Shown: piece by piece, positions 32,559-44,262 of the stretch
How positions within the stretch are numbered: position 1 is the first letter of the stretch
Layout: every line of letters begins with the position of its first letter
Source of the DNA: Pyrinomonadaceae bacterium
GTDB taxonomy: Bacteria; Acidobacteriota; Blastocatellia; Pyrinomonadales; Pyrinomonadaceae
NCBI GenBank assembly: GCA_014380365.1
Contig: JACMJZ010000032.1
Span: 104,860-168,859 of the forward strand
Reading direction: 5' to 3'
DNA: 64,000 nt
Notes under the pieces: generated by a model
What the model was told of the DNA's origin: nothing
Database searches by the model: none
The model's input: the letters and a program-made list of their open reading frames with translations, nothing else
Position numbers and translations under genes: made by a program

Positions 32559-33245
32559 ATGAATAAGAATCTGATCATTGCTATCGACGGCCCATCCGGC
32601 GCCGGCAAGTCAACCCTGGGCCGCATGCTGGCACGGGCACTTAATCTTCTCTACATTGATACAGGTTCAATGTATCGCGCTGTGGCGCTGGCGGTGATGG
32701 AGTCGAGCCTGAGCGCAAAGGATGATGTGGCGGTAGGCGCTCTGGCTGGTCGTGTCGATATCGACCTCGAGGGCGACCCTGATTCTTTGAGGGTGACTCT
32801 GGAGGGTCGCGATGTCAGCGACGAGATTCGTTCCGAAGAAGTTACTGAGATGTCGTCAATTATCTCAACTATTCCCGCCGTGCGACGTGCAATGGTTGAG
32901 CGGCAACGCGAACTGGGACAGCGTGGCGCGGTGCTAAACGGGCGTGACATCGGCACGGTTGTGTTTCCCGATGCCCACGTGAAGTTTTTTCTCACCGCGT
33001 TGCCCAATGAGCGCGCGGAAAGACGTTTTCATGAGGACCGGACTCAGAATCCGAACGTGGATTTTGAGGAGACGTTTGCAGATATGAAGGAACGCGATCG
33101 GCGTGACTCCACGCGCGCGGATTCGCCGCTGAAGAGCGCGGACGATGCGATCCTTGTCGACTCGACCGGGTTATCGATCGATGAAGTGTTTGAAACGATG
33201 ATGTCGGTCGTCCAGGGGAAGAGCGGGGTCAGGCCCCCTTCCTGA
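32559..33245 (+). CDS. cmk: cytidylate kinase
   Basis: IIAIDGPSGAGKSTLGRMLARALNLLYIDTGSMYRAVAL. The last 6-8 codons and the TGA lie inside the repeat arm 33223..33246. Confidence 0.9.
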   Translation: MNKNLIIAIDGPSGAGKSTLGRMLARALNLLYIDTGSMYRAVALAVMESSLSAKDDVAVGALAGRVDIDLEGDPDSLRVTLEGRDVSDEIRSEEVTEMSSIISTIPAVRRAMVERQRELGQRGAVLNGRDIGTVVFPDAHVKFFLTALPNERAERRFHEDRTQNPNVDFEETFADMKERDRRDSTRADSPLKSADDAILVDSTGLSIDEVFETMMSVVQGKSGVRPPS

Positions 33246-33357
33246 CTGCGAGATTCTCCTACACGAATCTGAGAGCTCGGCTTGAAAGACGTTCAAGCTA
33301 GAATGGAAGAGGAGCGTTACATCATCTCGAAGGTTAGGAAGGCGGGCTTGCCCCCGC
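33223..33357. repeat. MITE-like element, same family as 23279..23407
   Basis: Arms GCGGGGTCAGGCCCCCTTCCTGAC (33223..33246) and GTTAGGAAGGCGGGCTTGCCCCCGC (33333..33357). The ~86-nt spacer begins TGCGAGATT, like the other copy (TTCGAGATT). Confidence 0.75.
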
Positions 33358-35788: not shown

Positions 35789-38700
35789 ATGAGTGTAGAC
35801 GATCGCGACAACGGTCCCGGGAAAGACTCGTCCCCATCCGGAAGTTCACCGAATAATTCGGCGAACGATCAGGAGATTGCTGAGGCCCTGCAGTCCAAGA
35901 CTGACGAGCCACTGCCGCCGGTTGCCGAAGTCATTGCCGAGCGCGACGCCCAAAGCAAACATCCCGTAACTCCGCAGGGCCGCCGCCGTCGTTATCTGAA
36001 TCAACGCAACCTCGTAATCGCGACAATCTTCGGCGCCGTTGGCATCGTAGCCTTAATCCTGCTGATCTTTCTGGCGTACAAACTCGGCTACACGGATCGC
36101 TACGTGGCGGGCCAGATCAAAGAGACGTTTGCGAAGTATGGCATTCGCGCGGAGATCAAAGAGTTTCATGCCGGCTTCCCACCGCAAACTGTCGAGATGT
36201 CAGGACTGGAACTTTTCGACGCTCAGACAGGAGAGAAGCTCGGGAAAATTGATCGACTGTCGGCGACTGTACGCATCGAGGATCTCTACGCTTTCAATCT
36301 GCAACGAAACATCAATCTCAAAGAACTCAAGATCGAGGGACTCGAAGCATGGGTCACATTTGATGCGCAGGGCAACTCAAACTTTCGCAACATCCGCATT
36401 CCCGCGCCCGAGCCCAACAAGAACATCCTATTCGCCTACTCCACCGCCTTCGTCCAAATAAAGAATGGTGTCATTCACTATGGCGATGCGCGTCATGAAA
36501 TTTCGGGCGAAGCTCGCAATCTCAACGCCACTGTCCAACCCGACGATCCCTCCGCGCCGGCTGCCAGCTGGATGAACACCGTAGTCCTCGGGCTCTCAAA
36601 TTCCACCTTCACTTACGACGGTCGCGCCGTTGACAACATCGGAGTCGAAGCTCGCGGACGCATAAATCAGACGCGCGCCGAGATCCAGTCGCTCGTGATC
36701 AAGTCGCCGCTGGCCGAAGCGCAGCTGAATGGGACGATGGACGACTGGCGCGCGCTTCGTTATCAGATGAACATCACTTCTTCCGTCGATCTTACGCAGC
36801 TCTCCGACCTGCTGCAGGCGGGCACGACCCTGCGTGGGGCCGGAAATTTTGCGGGCACGGTTACCGGCGAAGGCGATAATTACAAGGTTGACGGCAGCAT
36901 CAAGTCAGACGCGCTGGCGGCTGACGGCCTGCGCCTGCAAGGCCTGAATGTTACTGCCCGTGGCACGGGCCAAGGCAAGAGCTACGATCTGAACGGCAGC
37001 GCAGTGGCGGCTTTGCTCACGGCCGGCGACTTCCAACTCAACAACGTGCAACTTGTTGGCGGCGTGATGGGCACCGGCTCGGATTTTAGCTGGATCGGTG
37101 ACTTGCGCGCAGCCGCCGAGCGAAGTTACGGGACGACCATCACGAATTTGATACTGCAGGAGGCGCGGGCCGAGATGAACGACGGCGTGCTGACGGCTTC
37201 GTCGAGTCAATTTACGGCCGGCAGTCTGGCTAGTTCCGGCGCACGGGTTAACGGCATCACCGCTTCGGATTTACGTCTGCGCAGCGAAGGGGATTCCGCC
37301 ACGGCGTCGGTTTCCAAAGTGAAGGCGGGGACAATCGTCGGCTCCGGGGCGACGGTTAAAGGTGTCACGGCAAACAACGTGGACATCGCCAGCCGGGGTG
37401 GCGTGACGAGCGTAGTTGTAAAGGACGTGCAGGTTGGCGGAGCGAATGCCGCTGGAGCCGAGATTGGCAGCATCAGCATCGCGGGGGTACGGCTGTCCGT
37501 TCGTGGCGGACGGATGGAAGGGTCAACTGCGGACATCAATGCCGGCACAGTGAAACTTGCCGACGGCCAGGTGGAAAACGTGAAGCTGGCAAAGCCAGTC
37601 TTTGTCGTTGAGCCATCTGGCAGGTATCGAGCCAGCGCCGATTTGAGTCTCGGTGGGGGCATGCTGGGCCAGATGAACATGGGCCAGGCCAGCGCGAAGG
37701 TAGTAGTTACCAACACCGAGCTGCAACTCAACAACTTCGACGCCGACATCTTTCGCGGCAAGGCAAATGGCAACGCGAGAATAGCAATTGCCCGCGGCGG
37801 CACGTCACGCATCGCCGCCACCTTTGCCGACGTGGACGTTTCCGGACCGTTCACCGCCTTTGCCGGCGCTGCTGTCCCGCTTGCGGGCCGCGCGAGCGGC
37901 AGGATTGACCTGGCGTTTCCCGGCACCAATTTCCACCAGGCGACTGGAACACTGAATACCACCTTCACCGGACAGGACATCGGAGTGGACGGACGCGTGC
38001 CACTGTCAGGCGAGGTGGCAGTACGCGCCGATAAGGGTTTATTCAATATTGAAAAGGTTGATCTGCAAACCGCCGCGACCAAACTCAGGGCGACGGGACA
38101 GTTTTCCTTCACCGCTGATTCAAATCTTCAGGTCGACCTGAATTCCACCGACGCGGCGGAGTTGCAGGCGGTCTTGATCTCTTCGGGCCTGCTGCCGGAT
38201 GTGGAAGAGCAGATGCGCAGCTATGGGATTGACCTCGGCGGGCAGTTGGCTTTCAACGGGAGTCTAAAAGGAAAACTGACTTCGCCGGATATCGACGGGC
38301 GCGTCTCGCTGAGCACTCTCCTAATTAATGGAAAGGACCTTGGCGCCTTGTCCGCATCGCTCCGGATGACGGCGGCAGAGATGCGCATCGACGATGGACG
38401 CCTGACGGAAAGTGACGGCGGCGGGATGCAGTTTACGCTTGACGCCCCGCGCACCGGCGAAAACAACATCACGCTTAACGCCACGCTCGACCGCGTCAAC
38501 GCGGGCAACCTGCTCGCAGCGCTCCCGCTCAACAAGAACACCCGGGAACAGTTTGGCGACACTGTGGCTGATGCATCTGGTCAAATAAAGATAACTGGAA
38601 TTCCCGGCGCGATGAGCGGCAGCGCTGATTTGGCATTTGGTCCGGGCCGCCTCGCCGGCGAACCGCTCGAGGGCCTGGTCGCGCGCGCTACGTTCAGCGG

Positions 38701-40762
38701 ATCGAAAGTCAGCATCGAAAATATCGATGCGAAGCTGGCGGCGGGTCACATCGTTGCAAGCGGTGCATACGACACGACTACGAAAGCGTTTGAGATGAAG
38801 GGCCGAGCGGAAGGCGTTCAACTCAGCCGTCTCTTCGCGCTTACCGGTCAGCAGGGCGCCACGGTGTCAGGCATAGCAAACTTCAATGCTCAGATATCGG
38901 GAAGCTCATCCGCGTTGGACTTCTCCGGTTACCAGATCACGTTCGACGGCGAAGGAAACAACGTAGTCATCAACGGCCGCCCGGCAGGCACTCTTGCCCT
39001 GGTGGGTCGGACAGAAAACCAGCGACTCAACGTGACGCTGACAACCGGCCTTTTGGGAACGCCACAATCAATCACAGCGCAGGTTAATCTCGGCAGCGAG
39101 AAACTGGAAGCTAACGTCGAAACCACGCTCAACAATGCCGACCTCACGTCTCTGCTGAAAATGGTTTTGCCGCAGACCCCGGTAAAACTTTCGGGCCTTG
39201 CCACGGGCACGCTGAAGTTAAGCGGGAATCTGCTCGACGAAGACGGTTACCCTTCCGCCGGAGGTTTAAGCGGAGTTGCAAACTTCACCCAGCTCAGTTT
39301 CAGAGTTGAAGATGTTCAGCTCAACGCATCGTCGCCGCTAGTCGTGCGTTTTTCGCCGCGCGAAGTAGCTTTTGATCAGACCCGGTTCACGGGCCCTGGA
39401 ACAAATATCGTTCTCGGCGGCACGCTCGCCGTGGGTCCGGAAGGTCGGCAGAGCATGACGGCCGACGGACAGTTGAACCTCAGAGTGTTGAATGGACTGT
39501 CGCCCGATGTGTTCATGTCCGGGACGGCAGAGGTCGGCGTGCGGGTCACGGGCAGCTACGAACGGCCGCGACTAAACGGCAGCGCTTCCGTCGCCGGAGG
39601 TTCCGTCTCGGCACTGCTGGACAATGAACGGTGGACTGTCTCGAATTTAAGAGCGCTCGTCAGGTTCACTTCCAACCAGGCGCAGATTGATTCATTGACG
39701 GGGACGATGGGGGGCGGCCGGCTCTCCGCAACCGGAGGCGCGCTGCTCGATGGTTTCACCGTGTCGCGGTTCTTATTCAACATCCATGGCGATGACGTGT
39801 CGGTGACGATCCCGGAGAACTTCCGCTCGACGATTGACGCGGATATTGAGCTTAAGGGAACCGCTCGCGAGCAACTGGTTGGTGGGGTGATTAATGTGCG
39901 CCGTACTGAATACACCGAGGACATCGAGCTGGCCGATCTGATTAATACCCGGCGCGAAGAGTCGATTGAAGAGGGTGGCGACCTGGAGTTGACGCGAGCG
40001 ACGCTGTACAGCAACCTGCGAATTGAAGGTCGCAACGCGCTGGTGGTGAGAAACAATCTTGCCGATCTGGTTGGCTCCTTCTCGCTGCAGCTCAACGGGC
40101 CCGTAAAAGAACCCGTGATCTCCGGAAGGATTACGGCCACCAGCGGCACTCTGAATTTCCGGAACGATCGTTATCAGATAACCCGCGCTCTGATGGACTT
40201 GCCGGCGCAGCGCGATGCCGATCCGATAATCAACATTCAGGGCGAGTCGCAGATACGTGGCTACCGCGTGACCGTCGGACTGAGTGGTCCTCTTTCGCAG
40301 CCACAGGCGATAGTGAGTTCGGAGCCGTCGCTCCCGCAGGCGGATGTCGTTTCGTTGATCACGACCGGCCAGCTCTCGACCGGCGACACCAGCACCTCTG
40401 TCCTTTCACAATCCGGTTTGGGAACAGCGACCAGTCTGCTAACCGACGCCCTTATCAACGCCCCGGCACAACGCGCTACCAGCAGACTCTTCGGGTTGAG
40501 CCGTTTTGAGATAACTCCGGTAATCGGTGGACGGGGAACGTCGCCGTCGGCTCGCCTGACGCTGGGGAAGAGAATTAACAAAGACCTTACGTTTACTTAT
40601 TCGACCAATGTGACGTCTGATCCCAATCAGATTTTGGCTGTCGAGTATCGAGTGTCAGACAGGCTGTTTTTCATTGCGCAGTACGAACAAGTCTCTACGC
40701 AGAGATTAACTGCGCGCAGCGATAATTTTAGTTTTGAGATTAGGTTCAGAAAACGATTCTAA
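35789..40762 (+). CDS. tamB: TamB/AsmA-like translocation and assembly module protein (1657 aa)
   Basis: N-terminal TM anchor, long beta-rich repetitive body, and a C-terminal TamB/DUF490-like segment (INIQGESQIRGYRVTVGLSGPLSQPQAIVSSEPSLPQADVVSLITTGQ). Confidence 0.8.
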   Translation: MSVDDRDNGPGKDSSPSGSSPNNSANDQEIAEALQSKTDEPLPPVAEVIAERDAQSKHPVTPQGRRRRYLNQRNLVIATIFGAVGIVALILLIFLAYKLGYTDRYVAGQIKETFAKYGIRAEIKEFHAGFPPQTVEMSGLELFDAQTGEKLGKIDRLSATVRIEDLYAFNLQRNINLKELKIEGLEAWVTFDAQGNSNFRNIRIPAPEPNKNILFAYSTAFVQIKNGVIHYGDARHEISGEARNLNATVQPDDPSAPAASWMNTVVLGLSNSTFTYDGRAVDNIGVEARGRINQTRAEIQSLVIKSPLAEAQLNGTMDDWRALRYQMNITSSVDLTQLSDLLQAGTTLRGAGNFAGTVTGEGDNYKVDGSIKSDALAADGLRLQGLNVTARGTGQGKSYDLNGSAVAALLTAGDFQLNNVQLVGGVMGTGSDFSWIGDLRAAAERSYGTTITNLILQEARAEMNDGVLTASSSQFTAGSLASSGARVNGITASDLRLRSEGDSATASVSKVKAGTIVGSGATVKGVTANNVDIASRGGVTSVVVKDVQVGGANAAGAEIGSISIAGVRLSVRGGRMEGSTADINAGTVKLADGQVENVKLAKPVFVVEPSGRYRASADLSLGGGMLGQMNMGQASAKVVVTNTELQLNNFDADIFRGKANGNARIAIARGGTSRIAATFADVDVSGPFTAFAGAAVPLAGRASGRIDLAFPGTNFHQATGTLNTTFTGQDIGVDGRVPLSGEVAVRADKGLFNIEKVDLQTAATKLRATGQFSFTADSNLQVDLNSTDAAELQAVLISSGLLPDVEEQMRSYGIDLGGQLAFNGSLKGKLTSPDIDGRVSLSTLLINGKDLGALSASLRMTAAEMRIDDGRLTESDGGGMQFTLDAPRTGENNITLNATLDRVNAGNLLAALPLNKNTREQFGDTVADASGQIKITGIPGAMSGSADLAFGPGRLAGEPLEGLVARATFSGSKVSIENIDAKLAAGHIVASGAYDTTTKAFEMKGRAEGVQLSRLFALTGQQGATVSGIANFNAQISGSSSALDFSGYQITFDGEGNNVVINGRPAGTLALVGRTENQRLNVTLTTGLLGTPQSITAQVNLGSEKLEANVETTLNNADLTSLLKMVLPQTPVKLSGLATGTLKLSGNLLDEDGYPSAGGLSGVANFTQLSFRVEDVQLNASSPLVVRFSPREVAFDQTRFTGPGTNIVLGGTLAVGPEGRQSMTADGQLNLRVLNGLSPDVFMSGTAEVGVRVTGSYERPRLNGSASVAGGSVSALLDNERWTVSNLRALVRFTSNQAQIDSLTGTMGGGRLSATGGALLDGFTVSRFLFNIHGDDVSVTIPENFRSTIDADIELKGTAREQLVGGVINVRRTEYTEDIELADLINTRREESIEEGGDLELTRATLYSNLRIEGRNALVVRNNLADLVGSFSLQLNGPVKEPVISGRITATSGTLNFRNDRYQITRALMDLPAQRDADPIINIQGESQIRGYRVTVGLSGPLSQPQAIVSSEPSLPQADVVSLITTGQLSTGDTSTSVLSQSGLGTATSLLTDALINAPAQRATSRLFGLSRFEITPVIGGRGTSPSARLTLGKRINKDLTFTYSTNVTSDPNQILAVEYRVSDRLFFIAQYEQVSTQRLTARSDNFSFEIRFRKRF

Positions 40763-40764
40763 CA

Positions 40765-43700
40765 ATGGGTGGATCTGCATCAGGGATGAACGCTGTGGAA
40801 TCTCATGGTAAGGAAGGTGGGCTTGCCCCCGCTGGACTTGAGCGCCACTCAAGCAGCGGGGGTAAACCACCCTTCCTAACCTGTAAATTTGCGGCAGTTG
40901 CGGGTTTCCATGGAAGTGGCTCCCAGCAACGCTCCAGCGCTTTCTCGTTCGCGGTTCTCATTTCAATCCTGCTTGTTGCGTTTGTCAGCGCAGAGGCGGC
41001 TTCGACTTTTGAGGAGTATGAGGGGCGACTGATCCGATCGATCGAAATAACTTTTGAGGGCTCTCCAGCTGACCCGGGAGCGCAAGCAGAGTTTCTTTCG
41101 CTGCTTGCGATTGTTCCCAACACAGAATTTTCGGCGGTCGGTGTCCGCGATTCTCTCCAGGCCCTGTTTGTGTCAGAGCGGGTGGCGAATGCGCGAGTGG
41201 AAGTGTTTGAAGAAGGCGCGCCCAAAACGGGACCGCTCCGCCTGCGCTTTGTTATTACGCGGCAAGTGCAGATTGGGGACATCAGGCTCGATCTGGTTGC
41301 TCCCACCGGCACGCCGGTTTCCGAGGACGAGCTGCGCGCTCGCTTGAATTTGACCCAACCCGGCGCTCGACTTTCCCACCAGGTAATTCTGCGCAACTCC
41401 GACGAGCTCCAGGTCTATTTGCGAGACCGCGGTTACTTCAACGCGACGATTGAGACGGCGGAACAACTGGATCCCAGCGGCACGCGCGCCACTGTGACTT
41501 ACAAGATTGTTCCCGGCGAACAATCGCGTGTGGCGGCCTTCAATATCGACATCACCGGGTTTGACGTAAATACGGTTCGGCCGTCGCTGGCGCTGCAACC
41601 CAACGCGCCTTTCACCCGCGAAGCGCTCGGCCAGGACACCAATCGCATTCGCCAGGCTGTAATCGAGCAGGGAAATCTTTCACCGTTGCTCAACGAGGCG
41701 AGGGTGGAACGCGACCCCGAGAAGAACCAGATAACGATAACTCTCAAAGGCGTCGTGGGCCCGAAGGTCAATGTCATCGTCAAAGACTTCCCGCTTAGCG
41801 AGAAGACACAACGCGAGCTTTTGCCGGTCAAACGCGAAGGCAACATCGATATCTCTGCGATAGTCGAAGGCTCGCGCCGGCTGCGAAACAAATTTCAGGA
41901 GGATGGCTATTTCTTTGCTGAGGTATCTGCTGTGTGCACCGTCACACCGCCCACACCCGAGTTTGGCGAGAACGGCACGTCCGCGACTTGCGAGACTCTA
42001 AATCCTGAAACCCTGACTGGTCGTAACGTTGAGATCCGCTACGAGATCGAACCCGGCCGTCGCCTCAAGCTGACTGACATTCGTATCACCGGCACAAACA
42101 AACTGACGTTTGATGACGTCGCCGCCGATCTGAGAACTCAGAAAGCCAGCGCGATAGGCTTGATTCCGTTCCTCGGATACGGACGCGGCTACACCAGCCT
42201 CACGCTCCTGGAACAGGACCGGCGCACGATCGACTCTTACATGCGAGATATTGGTTACCGCCGCGTCCAGACAAAAGTGCTGCAGGGTGTTTCGGTCGAC
42301 GGTGAAAGCGTGATCATCACCTTTGAAGTAAACGAAGGACCGCTGACTCGAATTGCCGGTGCTGAAGTTCGCGGCAACAAAATCTATACCGACCAACGAC
42401 TGCGGGATCAGTTGAAGACTGTTATCGGCGCGCCTTTTTCCCGATCCCAGGCCCGAGCCGACGGCGACCGCGTGCTGGCGCTCTATTCACGCGAAGGTTA
42501 CCTCAACGCGCAGATTGATTTTTCCATCGTCGAGCTGCCGAAGCGTGGTGACGAAGAGCAGGTCAAGCTGCTTTACACGATCGCAAACGAAGGCGACAAG
42601 GTCTACGTCAATCACATCATCGTTAATGGCGTTACCGGCAGCGATAAGGCGATGCGGACCAAGCGCGCGGCGATCCTGCGCGTGATTCCGCTGGCCGAGG
42701 GCGACGTCTTGCGCGCCGACAGAATCGCCGAAAGCGAGCGCGAACTCTATCTCACAGACGCCTACCGCCAGGTGATAATTCGCACCGAGGCCGCCGGCGA
42801 AACCATTTCCGGCTTCAAGCGCCGCGATTTGATTATAGACGTCGAGGAAAAAAAGCCGCGCGTGATGGACTACGGCGGAGGATTTTCAACTGATACCGGA
42901 GCGCTCGGGTTGTTGGAGATCAGCAACGTCAACTTGCGGAATAAGCTGCGACATGGCGCCATGCGACTCAGGGCCAGCCGCCAGCAGCAACGCGTTCGAT
43001 TGGAATATTTGGATCCGCGATTCGCCCGGTATGGCGAAAGGCAGTTCGCGCCGCTGGGGCTGTCGCTGGAATACTCGCGCGATTCCACGGTGACGCGATT
43101 TTTCCGTTCCGCAATTGACCGCGGCACGATGGGCATCGTGCAACGGCTGGACGAGGAAGGCAATGCGCTGGACGAGTTTGGCCTGCGAGTCAATGAGCCG
43201 ACCATCAATCGCTTCACGGCCACGATCGAGACGCAACGAGTGCTCAATTCCAAAACGCGATCGATTCTGTTCGCTCGTTATAGTTATGAAGACGTGCGCC
43301 TGTTCAATCTCCAGAGTTTGCTGGTGAGACCGATCCTCGAGCCCGATCGCGCAGTCCGTCTCTCCCGGTTTGGAGTCTCATTCGTTCGCGACACACGCCA
43401 GCGATGCGAGCGAGGTTTGCTCGGCGCCGTCAGCACGAGAGACGAATCGGAAACCGGCGCGCCCGGCGAAGTCTGCCGCTACAATCAGCTCGACGCCACG
43501 CGAGGCGATTTCTTCAACATTGATTATGCGGTCGCTTTGCGCCAGCTGGGCGGAAACATTTCCTTCAACAGGATGCAGGCCACCTACCGTCGTTATTACA
43601 AACTCGGCGGTCTGCGCGGTACGGTGCTGGCCGGAAACGCGACCCTCGGTCTGGCCAACGTTTTCAGCCCGCGCGATCGCAACGGCAATGGTTTGGATGA

Positions 43701-44262
43701 AATTGATCTAACCCTGCCGATTAGCGAAAGGTTCTCGTCCGGCGGCTCCACCACCCTGCGCGGATTTGATTTCGAACAGGCTGGCCCGCGGCAGGTAATA
43801 ATTCCGGCAGGGCCGTTTATCGATCAGAATAAGGAACCGGTGATCTTGAATCCCTTCACCGTTCCCGTCGGCGGCAATGCGTTGGCGATAATTAACCTGG
43901 AGGCGCGCATTCCAGTTTCCAAATCGCTGCAAGCAGTTCCTTTCTATGATGGCGGCAACGTGTTTCGGCGGGTGGGCGATTTGTTTGGTAAGAAAGACCC
44001 GGCGGTTGTGCCGCCGGGAGATGTCCTGGCCGCCATAAACGCCGCAAACCTGCGCGCCGCTTGGACGAATACGGTAGGGCTGGGGTTCAGAATTCAGACG
44101 CCCTTCGGCGGCGCCCTCGCCGTGGACTATGGGTTTCTGCTGAATCCGCCGGAGTTTCTGATTCCTCAGCGCGGCCCAGGCGGAATAGCCTACGACGGGA
44201 CGCCCGCCATTTATCGACTGAAGCGAACCCAGCTACACTTTAGATTCACGCAAACATTCTAG
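40765..44262 (+). CDS. bamA: Omp85/BamA-family outer-membrane protein assembly factor (POTRA repeats plus beta-barrel)
   Basis: POTRA-like repeats (IRSIEITFEG..., GDIRLD..., VAAFNIDITG..., LTDIRITGTNKLT..., IAGAEVRGNKIYT...). C-terminal barrel ending RFTQTF. No ATG, GTG or TTG lies in-frame between the repeat element and the signal-peptide core. Confidence 0.8.
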   Translation: MGGSASGMNAVESHGKEGGLAPAGLERHSSSGGKPPFLTCKFAAVAGFHGSGSQQRSSAFSFAVLISILLVAFVSAEAASTFEEYEGRLIRSIEITFEGSPADPGAQAEFLSLLAIVPNTEFSAVGVRDSLQALFVSERVANARVEVFEEGAPKTGPLRLRFVITRQVQIGDIRLDLVAPTGTPVSEDELRARLNLTQPGARLSHQVILRNSDELQVYLRDRGYFNATIETAEQLDPSGTRATVTYKIVPGEQSRVAAFNIDITGFDVNTVRPSLALQPNAPFTREALGQDTNRIRQAVIEQGNLSPLLNEARVERDPEKNQITITLKGVVGPKVNVIVKDFPLSEKTQRELLPVKREGNIDISAIVEGSRRLRNKFQEDGYFFAEVSAVCTVTPPTPEFGENGTSATCETLNPETLTGRNVEIRYEIEPGRRLKLTDIRITGTNKLTFDDVAADLRTQKASAIGLIPFLGYGRGYTSLTLLEQDRRTIDSYMRDIGYRRVQTKVLQGVSVDGESVIITFEVNEGPLTRIAGAEVRGNKIYTDQRLRDQLKTVIGAPFSRSQARADGDRVLALYSREGYLNAQIDFSIVELPKRGDEEQVKLLYTIANEGDKVYVNHIIVNGVTGSDKAMRTKRAAILRVIPLAEGDVLRADRIAESERELYLTDAYRQVIIRTEAAGETISGFKRRDLIIDVEEKKPRVMDYGGGFSTDTGALGLLEISNVNLRNKLRHGAMRLRASRQQQRVRLEYLDPRFARYGERQFAPLGLSLEYSRDSTVTRFFRSAIDRGTMGIVQRLDEEGNALDEFGLRVNEPTINRFTATIETQRVLNSKTRSILFARYSYEDVRLFNLQSLLVRPILEPDRAVRLSRFGVSFVRDTRQRCERGLLGAVSTRDESETGAPGEVCRYNQLDATRGDFFNIDYAVALRQLGGNISFNRMQATYRRYYKLGGLRGTVLAGNATLGLANVFSPRDRNGNGLDEIDLTLPISERFSSGGSTTLRGFDFEQAGPRQVIIPAGPFIDQNKEPVILNPFTVPVGGNALAIINLEARIPVSKSLQAVPFYDGGNVFRRVGDLFGKKDPAVVPPGDVLAAINAANLRAAWTNTVGLGFRIQTPFGGALAVDYGFLLNPPEFLIPQRGPGGIAYDGTPAIYRLKRTQLHFRFTQTF
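40807..40881. repeat. compact copy of the GGAAGG(C/T)GGGCTTGCCCCCGC element inside the bamA-like 5' coding region
   Basis: GGTAAGGAAGGTGGGCTTGCCCCCGCTG (40807..40834) against CAGCGGGGGTAAACCACCCTTCCTAACC (40854..40881). The loop is itself a hairpin, CTTGAG-CGCCAC-TCAAG. Confidence 0.75.

What the first reader, a model, noticed from the sequence alone, without database searches (positions are those of the whole stretch)
40765..40990. Hairpin element embedded in-frame in the 5' coding region of the BamA-like gene
The only canonical in-frame starts are ATG 40765, ATG 40786 and GTG 40795. All lie upstream of a compact copy of the GGAAGG.GGGCTTGCCCCCGC element (40807..40881, 28-nt arms, and a loop that is itself a hairpin). 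No ATG, GTG or TTG lies in-frame between the element and the signal-peptide core (FSFAVLISILLVAFVSAEA). The element therefore appears to be translated as HGKEGGLAPAGLERHSSSGGKPPFLT. This gives a ~60-aa n-region before the hydrophobic core, which is very unusual for an Omp85 protein. The ATG is 2 nt after the tamB stop. A strong hairpin just after the start could gate translation of an essential assembly factor.
Basis: partly seen in the sequence, partly recalled or inferred. Interest (0 to 1): 0.6.

Follow-up and report, generated by a model that had tools for sequence, protein, structure and literature searches.

The report
Translated REP hairpin in Omp85 leader
A selfish palindromic repeat (a REP element) sits in-frame in a disposable, translated leader ahead of the export signal of an outer-membrane Omp85 gene in a soil acidobacterium; this is a tolerated insertion of a known kind, with no evidence that it acts as a switch.

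Summary
A very stable hairpin (-53 kcal/mol, z -6.6) lies at 40805-40884. It sits inside the only open frame of the TamB-linked Omp85 gene, and every canonical start codon lies upstream of it.

The hairpin is an inverted doublet of a REP family. That family has 89 units at 59 loci in this genome and occurs in 42 of 61 sampled genomes of the genus (Pyrinomonadaceae). In relatives, inverted copies of the unit flank a Y1/RAYT-type transposase gene in 12 of 12 loci.

The element is almost certainly translated. Across 41 orthologous tamB-omp85 junctions (5,246 nt) the Omp85 frame has no stop after its first start codon, while each of the other two frames has 66. That start lies 0-20 nt from the tamB stop, and the leader ranges from about 0 to 135 residues.

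The long N-terminal extension is therefore a lineage trait, not a product of the element. The same insertion, in the same frame, occurs in seven other species of one clade. It is intact in some, decayed in others, and missing in sister species.

Hairpin structure is not conserved, so a role in "gating" translation is unsupported. The gene is a BamA paralogue; the canonical BamA lies elsewhere in the genome.

The parts
35789..40762 (+). TamB-family gene (1657 aa); its TAA stop is at 40760-40762
   Evidence: ORF list. Pfam TamB PF04357 at 6e-36, plus AsmA and DUF748.
40765..40767 (+). Most likely start codon of the Omp85 gene: an ATG 2 nt after the tamB stop, suggesting translational coupling
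   Evidence: An ATG lies 0-3 nt after the tamB stop in 21 of 41 orthologues. The first in-frame start lies -4 to +20 nt from the stop in 37 of 41. It is the only canonical start ahead of the hydrophobic core in the element-bearing orthologue L056, and in L044/L060 and L043 apart from one TTG inside the core. It is unpaired in the centroid fold.
40786..40797 (+). Alternative in-frame starts: ATG 40786 and GTG 40795. The public gene call uses GTG 40795.
   Evidence: the 1155-aa product from GTG 40795 is the sequence held in the protein collection. These two starts are shared only with L052. GTG 40795 lies about 10 nt before the stem and pairs in the extended fold.
40799..40835 (+). Left REP unit (U): CTCATGGTAAGGAAGGTGGGCTTGCCCCCGCTG. 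Its core matches the family 21-mer with 0 mismatches.
40836..40854 (+). Loop of the doublet, itself a small hairpin (CTTGAG-CGCCA-CTCAAG). It is homologous among the orthologous copies.
40855..40886 (+). Right REP unit (U', reverse-complement orientation, of the 'TAAACC' subtype): GCGGGGGTAAACCACCCTTCCTAACCTG. Read as GGKPPFLT.
   Evidence: AAACCACCCTTC is invariant in 7 orthologues, including third codon positions.
40765..40938 (+). Translated, sequence-unconstrained leader (residues 1-58) ahead of the signal-peptide core. The REP doublet encodes roughly residues 13-40.
   Evidence: Frame test; translation.
40939..40998 (+). Hydrophobic core and c-region of the signal peptide (AFSFAVLISILLVAFVSAEA). 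Cleavage is predicted after AEA.
   Evidence: Read from the sequence and aligned with orthologue signal peptides. The cleavage site is inferred from the AxA rule, not tested.
40765..44262 (+). Omp85-family gene (1165 aa; POTRA repeats plus an Omp85 barrel). It is a BamA paralogue partnered with TamB.

Best explanation
The hairpin is an inverted doublet of a REP (repetitive extragenic palindrome) family native to this Pyrinomonadaceae genus. In relatives the family's units flank a RAYT-type Y1 transposase gene.

One doublet landed in the stretch between the tamB stop and the hydrophobic core of the next gene's signal peptide, probably once, in the ancestor of a 19-member clade. In this genus that stretch is not intergenic. 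The Omp85 gene starts at a codon placed right at the tamB stop (here ATG 40765), and ribosomes read through a leader of variable length and unconstrained sequence. The only visible requirement on that leader is an open frame.

The doublet happens to be open in exactly one frame, and it sits in that frame. It is therefore translated as about 28 residues (SHGKEGGLAPAGLERHSSSGGKPPFLTC). These lie on the cytoplasmic side of the signal peptide and are discarded when signal peptidase cuts after AEA.

Shown: the repeat family, the RAYT association in relatives, the open-frame constraint, the shared insertion, and the lack of structure conservation.

Inferred: actual translation, cleavage of the leader, a single ancestral insertion, and neutrality of the hairpin.
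For: Family:
- 89 units at 59 loci in this genome, and 0-239 units in 42 of 61 genus genomes, with reversed-pattern controls near zero.
- The arrangements are 25 U'-spacer-U doublets, 5 U-loop-U' doublets and 29 singletons.
- All 12 fetched loci of one Y1 transposase group carry U upstream and U' downstream of the gene.

Translation:
- In 41 distinct junctions (5,246 nt), frame 0 has 13 stops, all within 25 nt of the tamB stop and before the first start. Frames +1 and +2 have 66 each.
- The same element occupies the same frame in L052, L044/L060, L055, L056, L058 and L043/L046, with a remnant in L057. These come from independent assemblies. In several of them the post-tamB ATG is the only start.
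- The +1-frame ATG at 40910 is not conserved.
- Among the 59 loci in this genome, this is the only one with no start codon downstream of the element.

Passenger status:
- The junction is significantly structured only in L001, L040 and L006 of 24 tested.
- Element folding energies range from -59 down to -20 kcal/mol.
- The element is absent in L039, L053 and L042, which sit inside the bearing subclades.
- Arm conservation above the neutral rate is a property of the whole family. A control REP doublet at the cmk 3' end also persists at its orthologous site in 9 of 29 other species.
Against:
- The arms are far more conserved than neutral sites. The right arm is 88% identical across pairs whose 4-fold sites are 44% identical, and synonymous positions of AAACCACCCTTC are invariant. 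Selection on the nucleic acid at this site is therefore not excluded.
- The left arm here matches the family consensus perfectly. That calls for recent gene conversion or re-insertion, neither of which I demonstrated.
- No cognate RAYT was found in this genome, which is 95% complete.
- A 58-residue n-region, up to about 135 in L040, is long for Sec export. No signal-peptide predictor was available.
Confidence: 0.75

Rival explanations
1. The hairpin is a selected cis-regulator. Sitting about 40 nt after the coupled start, it slows or limits ribosomes coming from tamB, or alters mRNA decay. Either effect would set the Omp85:TamB ratio.
For: - The structure is very stable.
- The arms are conserved far above the synonymous rate, at nucleotide rather than amino-acid level.
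- Other orthologues carry different palindromes in the same leader: L040 has a second REP family (z -7.5) and L038 has a small hairpin.
Against: - Most orthologous leaders are unstructured.
- The left arm is deleted or decayed in L043, L058 and L055, while the right arm stays intact. That is not the pattern of a maintained stem.
- The element is absent from sister species.
- Equal persistence at a control intergenic site suggests a family-wide property, not site-specific selection.
- The start codon is unpaired in the centroid fold.
Confidence: 0.14
2. The element is really intergenic. The assembly lacks one base, for example in the CCC run at about 40922. The true start would then be ATG 40910, giving an ordinary signal peptide, MEVAPQQRSSAFSFAVLISILLVAFVSAEA.
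For: - ATG 40910 and GTG 40916 lie in frame +1, and one added base would join them to the signal peptide (read).
- The genome is a 34-contig MAG, possibly assembled from long reads.
- About 10% of random 56-codon stretches are open by chance.
Against: - The ATG is not conserved in the closest element-bearing orthologues: L044 reads TTTCCGAAGAAGCGG, and the +1-frame ATG of L052 runs into a stop.
- Seven independent assemblies keep frame 0 open through the element.
- The genus-wide frame test gives 0 against 66 and 66 stops.
Confidence: 0.05
3. Translation starts at a rare codon (CTG, ATT or ATC) near the hydrophobic core, and the open upstream frame is coincidental.
For: ATT, ATC and CTG codons exist at 40954-40968, inside the core.
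Against: - These codons lie within the h-region and would leave too short a signal peptide with no positive n-region.
- The open-frame constraint across 41 orthologues is not coincidental.
Confidence: 0.03
4. The insertion has crippled the gene, which is now a decaying pseudogene.
For: None beyond the unusual 5' end.
Against: The 1165-codon frame is intact, the protein is 70-84% identical to its orthologues along its full length, and the same insertion persists in seven other species with intact genes.
Confidence: 0.02

Closest known systems
REP / REPIN elements with RAYT (REP-associated tyrosine transposase), as described in Pseudomonas and Enterobacteria (PMC3116915, PMC3337134)
   Same: A short GC-rich palindromic unit in high copy. 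It occurs as singletons and inverted doublets that fold as hairpins and is almost always extragenic. A Y1/HUH transposase gene is flanked by inverted units in relatives. Copies persist at orthologous sites over long divergence.
   Different: It occurs in a different phylum (Acidobacteriota, Pyrinomonadaceae) and has an unrelated unit sequence. No cognate RAYT was found in this genome. This copy is intragenic and translated, which REPs by definition usually are not.
Rickettsia palindromic elements (RPEs) and intragenic ERIC/BOX elements, which are in-frame palindromic repeats inside protein-coding genes (review PMC10969869, citing Ogata et al. 2000)
   Same: A selfish palindromic repeat inserted in-frame in an ORF. 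It is translated as extra residues, tolerated by the host protein, and absent from some orthologues.
   Different: There is no sequence relationship. Here the insertion lies in a leader that is removed with the signal peptide, not in the mature protein. Only 1 of 59 loci is intragenic, whereas nearly half of RPE copies from some families are.
Extended signal peptides, such as the ESPR of autotransporters and two-partner secretion proteins (from my own knowledge)
   Same: An outer-membrane or secreted protein whose signal peptide carries a long N-terminal extension ahead of a normal n-h-c signal.
   Different: The ESPR is a conserved motif of about 25 residues. Here the extension varies from 0 to about 135 residues with no conserved sequence, and the Pfam scan reported no such domain.
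REP-mediated control of translation in E. coli, where REPs within about 15 nt of a stop codon stall terminating ribosomes (Liang, Rudd & Deutscher 2015; recalled from my own knowledge, not read here)
   Same: A REP hairpin close to a gene junction that ribosomes must deal with.
   Different: Here the stem starts about 40 nt after the tamB stop and lies inside the next gene's reading frame. No effect has been shown.

Membership tests
REP/REPIN-RAYT system | Short palindromic unit in many copies, overwhelmingly extragenic | tested here: met
   There are 89 units at 59 loci. The spanning-frame analysis places all but this one outside coding sequence or upstream of a nearby start.
REP/REPIN-RAYT system | Inverted doublets (REPINs) able to form hairpins | tested here: met
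   There are 25 U'-spacer-U doublets (mostly about 110 nt apart) and 5 U-loop-U' doublets. This copy folds at -53 kcal/mol.
REP/REPIN-RAYT system | A Y1 (HUH) transposase gene flanked by inverted units of the same family | tested here: inconclusive
   Met in relatives: 12 of 12 loci (L102-L113) have U upstream and U' downstream of a gene of about 190 aa that hits Y1_Tnp and carries HFH and YIHANPV motifs. Not met in this genome: no homologue at E<=1e-20, and none of its 7 Y1_Tnp loci carries the unit. The assembly is 95% complete.
REP/REPIN-RAYT system | Demonstrated mobilisation by the RAYT | not testable with these tools
   This needs an experiment or population data.
In-frame intragenic palindromic repeats (RPE-like; a functional analogy, not a sequence family) | A dispersed palindromic repeat inside an ORF, in-frame with no stop, with orthologues that lack it | tested here: met
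BamA (NCBIfam TIGR03303 equivalog) | Score above the curated cut-off | tested here: not met
   The score is 237.7 bits against a cut-off of 297.15. The paralogue at G000:C5:341639-344758 scores 407.3. POTRA and Omp85 domains are present, so this is an Omp85-family BamA paralogue.
TamA / TamL | Score above the curated cut-off | tested here: not met
   TamA scores 54 against 625, and TamL scores 66 against 400. Only the gene order after tamB resembles the TAM module.
Intrinsic terminator | GC-rich stem followed by a U-tract | tested here: not met
   The scan found no terminator-like site in 40500-41200. The stem is followed by CUGUAAAUUUGCGG.
Any Rfam RNA family | Covariance-model match at or above the gathering score | tested here: not met
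   There is only a chance hairpin match: a miRNA precursor model at 23 bits against 64, E 0.08.

The most novel reading that the evidence does not exclude
In this genus the tamB-omp85 junction may be a 'translated spacer'. It would be kept only as an open frame, so that ribosomes finishing tamB are handed to the Omp85 signal peptide. On this reading, REP hairpins captured there (two different families in different species) act as adjustable brakes that tune how much Omp85 is made per TamB, which would make a selfish repeat a translational rheostat inside a coding sequence.
Probability: 0.1. Interest if true: 0.65.

Novelty: new member of a known kind. Interest (0 to 1): 0.35.

Why it matters
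The finding has three practical consequences:
1. **Annotation.** Omp85 genes of this clade should start at the codon abutting the tamB stop, here ATG 40765. The public call uses GTG 40795. The first 60 or so residues are leader, not mature protein.
2. **REP biology.** A REP/RAYT-type system is documented in Acidobacteria. A REP can persist for a long time inside a translated region if that region is a cleaved, unconstrained leader.
3. **A possible model.** The junction is a natural case of strict translational coupling through a hypervariable leader of 0 to about 135 residues. That could be used to study how long n-regions and strong mRNA hairpins affect Sec export and coupled translation.

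None of this overturns current understanding.

Tried and rejected
- **Downstream canonical or rare start.** There is none in frame before residue 138 of the ORF, and the rare codons lie inside the h-region.
- **Terminator, promoter or known RNA family at the hairpin.** Nothing was found.
- **Conserved structure in the junction.** Rejected: 21 of 24 spacers tested have z above -2.
- **Formal covariation test.** The MAFFT alignment of the 7 orthologous copies misplaces the left arms of the 121-nt forms, so I did not run pair counts on it. By eye the right arm is near-invariant while the left arm decays.
- **Cognate RAYT in this genome.** Its seven Y1_Tnp loci carry other palindromes, not this unit, and the relatives' RAYT has no orthologue here.
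- **RAYT presence against unit count across 61 genomes.** The relationship is suggestive but untidy. Several MAGs rich in units lack a detected RAYT, and a few genomes with a RAYT have no units. I make no statistical claim.
- **Empty-site reconstruction.** Leaders of element-free sister species (L039, L053) are too diverged to define exact insertion boundaries or target duplications.
- **Earlier scan notes by sequence.** No look-alike was found.

Full report
**1. What is in the sequence**

The TamB-family ORF (35789-40762; Pfam TamB, AsmA and DUF748) ends with TAA at 40760-40762. Two bases later, ATG 40765 opens a 1165-codon frame with POTRA repeats and an Omp85 barrel.

The in-frame canonical starts are ATG 40765, ATG 40786 and GTG 40795. 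The next one is 98 codons beyond the element, inside the mature protein.

RNA 40795-40895 folds at -53.1 kcal/mol, against -32.5 +/- 3.1 for dinucleotide shuffles (z -6.6). It has a long imperfect stem and a loop that is itself a hairpin.

Similarity to other copies of the repeat runs from about 40799 to 40886. In the right arm, frame +2 has TAA at 40863 and frame +1 has TAA at 40877, so only the gene's own frame is open through the element.

**2. What the element is**

The 21-mer GGAAGGNGGGCTTGCCCCCGC occurs 69 times in this genome at up to 2 mismatches, and the reversed control pattern occurs 0 times. At up to 3 mismatches there are 89 units at 59 loci.

The unit (U) is about 35 nt: CTCnnGGTnnGGAAGGnGGGCTTGCCCCCGCTCT. 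It appears in three arrangements:
- 29 singletons;
- 25 U'-spacer-U doublets, mostly about 110 nt apart;
- 5 U-loop-U' doublets, of which this copy is one.

The family is present in 42 of 61 sampled genomes of the genus, at 0 to 239 units per genome. Record titles of orthologous contigs place the genus in Pyrinomonadaceae (Acidobacteriota, Blastocatellia).

In relatives, a Y1/HUH transposase of about 190 aa is flanked by U upstream and U' downstream in all 12 loci fetched. It gives a weak Pfam Y1_Tnp hit and carries HFH and YIHANPV motifs. A transposase gene flanked by inverted units is the hallmark of REP/REPIN-RAYT systems (PMC3116915, PMC3337134).

This genome has seven Y1_Tnp hits, but they are flanked by other palindrome families. 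No orthologue of the relatives' RAYT was found here, although the assembly is 95% complete.

There is no Rfam match, terminator or promoter at the site.

**3. Is it translated?**

I collected orthologous tamB-omp85 junctions from species-representative genomes, metagenome contigs and named MAGs.

In 41 non-identical junctions (5,246 nt between the tamB stop and the hydrophobic core), the Omp85 frame has 13 stops. All 13 lie within 25 nt of the tamB stop and before the first in-frame start. The other two frames have 66 stops each (first pass).

The first in-frame start lies -4 to +20 nt from the tamB stop in 37 of 41 junctions. In 21 of them it is an ATG 0-3 nt after the stop, giving 'MG...'. 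The distance from that start to the conserved YEGR motif ranges from 31 to 164 codons.

The whole junction is therefore kept open and is read from a start coupled to tamB termination. A leader of 0 to about 135 residues ahead of the signal peptide is a trait of the genus. Orthologues without the element have leaders as long as or longer than this one (L005, L039, L040).

Seven other species carry the same element at the same place, in the same orientation and in the same frame:
- L052 is the closest look-alike (MIRSASGMNSVVSGGKEGGFAPS...SRGKPPFPTC);
- L044, which is identical to L060;
- L055, which is decayed;
- L056;
- L058;
- L043, which is identical to L046 and has a degenerate left arm;
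- L057, which keeps only a left-arm remnant.

In L056 the post-tamB ATG is the only canonical start ahead of the mature protein. L044/L060 and L043 add only a single TTG inside the hydrophobic core.

These assemblies are independent of one another, which argues against the main rival. That rival is a missing base in this MAG that would bring the +1-frame ATG 40910 into phase and give MEVAPQQRSS..., an ordinary signal peptide. ATG 40910 is not conserved: L044 reads TTTCCGAAGAAGCGG there, and the +1-frame ATG in L052 runs into a stop.

The public gene call starts at GTG 40795 and also includes the element. Comparative evidence favours ATG 40765.

Among the 59 loci of the family in this genome, this is the only one with no start codon shortly downstream.

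**4. History**

In a 40-row tree of the Omp85 protein, all eight element-bearing rows fall inside one 19-row clade with 100/100 support. They split into two subclades and are interspersed with rows that lack the element (L039, L053, L042 and others). At least 5 changes are needed.

The orthologous copies share loop sequence (CTTGAgCGcC..TCAAG). The other four U-loop-U' copies in this genome have unrelated loops. This favours one old insertion followed by decay and loss.

The arms are much better conserved than neutral sites. The right arm averages 88% pairwise identity, where 4-fold degenerate sites of the adjacent coding region average 44%. AAACCACCCTTC is invariant, third codon positions included, so the constraint acts at nucleotide level and not on the peptide. 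The left arm in this genome matches the family consensus perfectly.

As a control I examined another copy, the REP doublet at the cmk 3' end (window 33223-33357). It also persists at its orthologous site in 9 of 29 other species, with arms within 0-4 mismatches. Persistence close to the consensus is therefore a property of the family. It could arise from gene conversion among copies, re-insertion, or family-level selection. It is not evidence for a role specific to the omp85 site. I have not determined which of these processes operates.

**5. Does the hairpin do anything here?**

Structure is not a conserved feature of the junction. Only L001 (z -3.4), L040 (z -7.5, which carries a different REP family) and L006 (z -2.6) stand out among 24 spacers.

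Among the orthologous copies, folding energy falls from -59 to -20 kcal/mol. In L043 and L058 the GGAAGG part of the left arm is gone while the right arm is intact. That is not how a maintained stem evolves.

The stem begins about 40 nt after ATG 40765, outside an initiating ribosome's footprint, and that codon is unpaired in the centroid fold.

I therefore rate a 'gate' on translation as possible but unsupported, at about 0.14.

**6. Identity of the gene**

The protein scores below the BamA equivalog cut-off (237.7 against 297.15) and far below the TamA and TamL cut-offs. A second Omp85 gene at G000:C5:341639-344758 passes the BamA cut-off at 407 bits. The gene in this finding is a TamB-partnered BamA paralogue, so 'essential assembly factor' is not established.

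**7. Comparison and verdict**

The closest mechanistic family is REP/REPIN-RAYT. Membership is met for unit, doublets and extragenic habit. It is met in relatives only for the RAYT association.

The closest analogy for the intragenic state is the in-frame palindromic elements of Rickettsia (RPEs) and intragenic ERIC/BOX elements (PMC10969869). What differs here is the landing place: a translated but disposable leader ahead of a signal peptide.

This is a new member of a known kind. The conserved coupled start and the hypervariable translated leader are the more notable by-products.

Noticed in passing
L040:2078-2500 (metagenome orthologue Ga0136617_10001561); L033 = G000:C8:98997-102254: The L040 Omp85 leader is about 135 residues longer and contains an inverted pair of a different REP family (CCCAGGGTGGAGCGAAGCGGAACCCTGGG), still in an open frame. 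The same unit flanks a Y1_Tnp gene in this genome at G000:C8:100497-100754, about 4 kb upstream of the window start.
   Followed up: partly
G000:C20:528798-529139 (L031), G000:C20:403064-403408 (L032), G000:C8:100497-100754 (L033): This genome holds at least three other Y1 transposase genes. Each is flanked by its own palindromic repeat family, and L031 is followed by a tandem array of them. Several REP-RAYT-like systems therefore coexist in this genome.
   Followed up: partly
G000:C5:341639-344758 (outside the window): This is the canonical BamA (TIGR03303, 407 bits against a cut-off of 297), with an ordinary short signal peptide. The window's gene is a paralogue.
   Followed up: yes
window 33223-33357: The REP doublet at the 3' end of cmk is retained at the orthologous position in 9 of 29 other species of the genus (cmk 79-83% identical). 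The arms stay within 0-4 mismatches of the consensus, showing long persistence of REP loci in this family.
   Followed up: partly
window 40795: The public gene call for this protein (1155 aa) starts at GTG 40795. Comparative evidence favours ATG 40765, which abuts the tamB stop.
   Followed up: yes
window 40910-41030: An ATG and a GTG in frame +1 (40910, 40916) would, with one extra base, give a textbook signal peptide. This frame ends at a TGA near 41030. The ATG is not conserved in relatives, but a read-level check is still worth doing.
   Followed up: partly
window 40810-40820 and 40866-40876: The REP core GGAAGGTGG resembles a Shine-Dalgarno sequence with one extra A, and its complement CCACCCTTCC resembles the anti-SD. 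Many singleton units lie 10-40 nt upstream of gene starts, for example G000:C2:56800 and G000:C8:214849. Whether this matters for translation is unknown.
   Followed up: no
L044 / L056 compared with L001 / L052 / L058 (element region): Two orthologues from different subclades carry a 121-nt form of the element, with a shared extra segment of about 40 nt (GGCACnnCAGCGnGGCTG...). Others carry an 82-nt form. The direction of change (deletion or insertion) and the role of gene conversion are unresolved.
   Followed up: no
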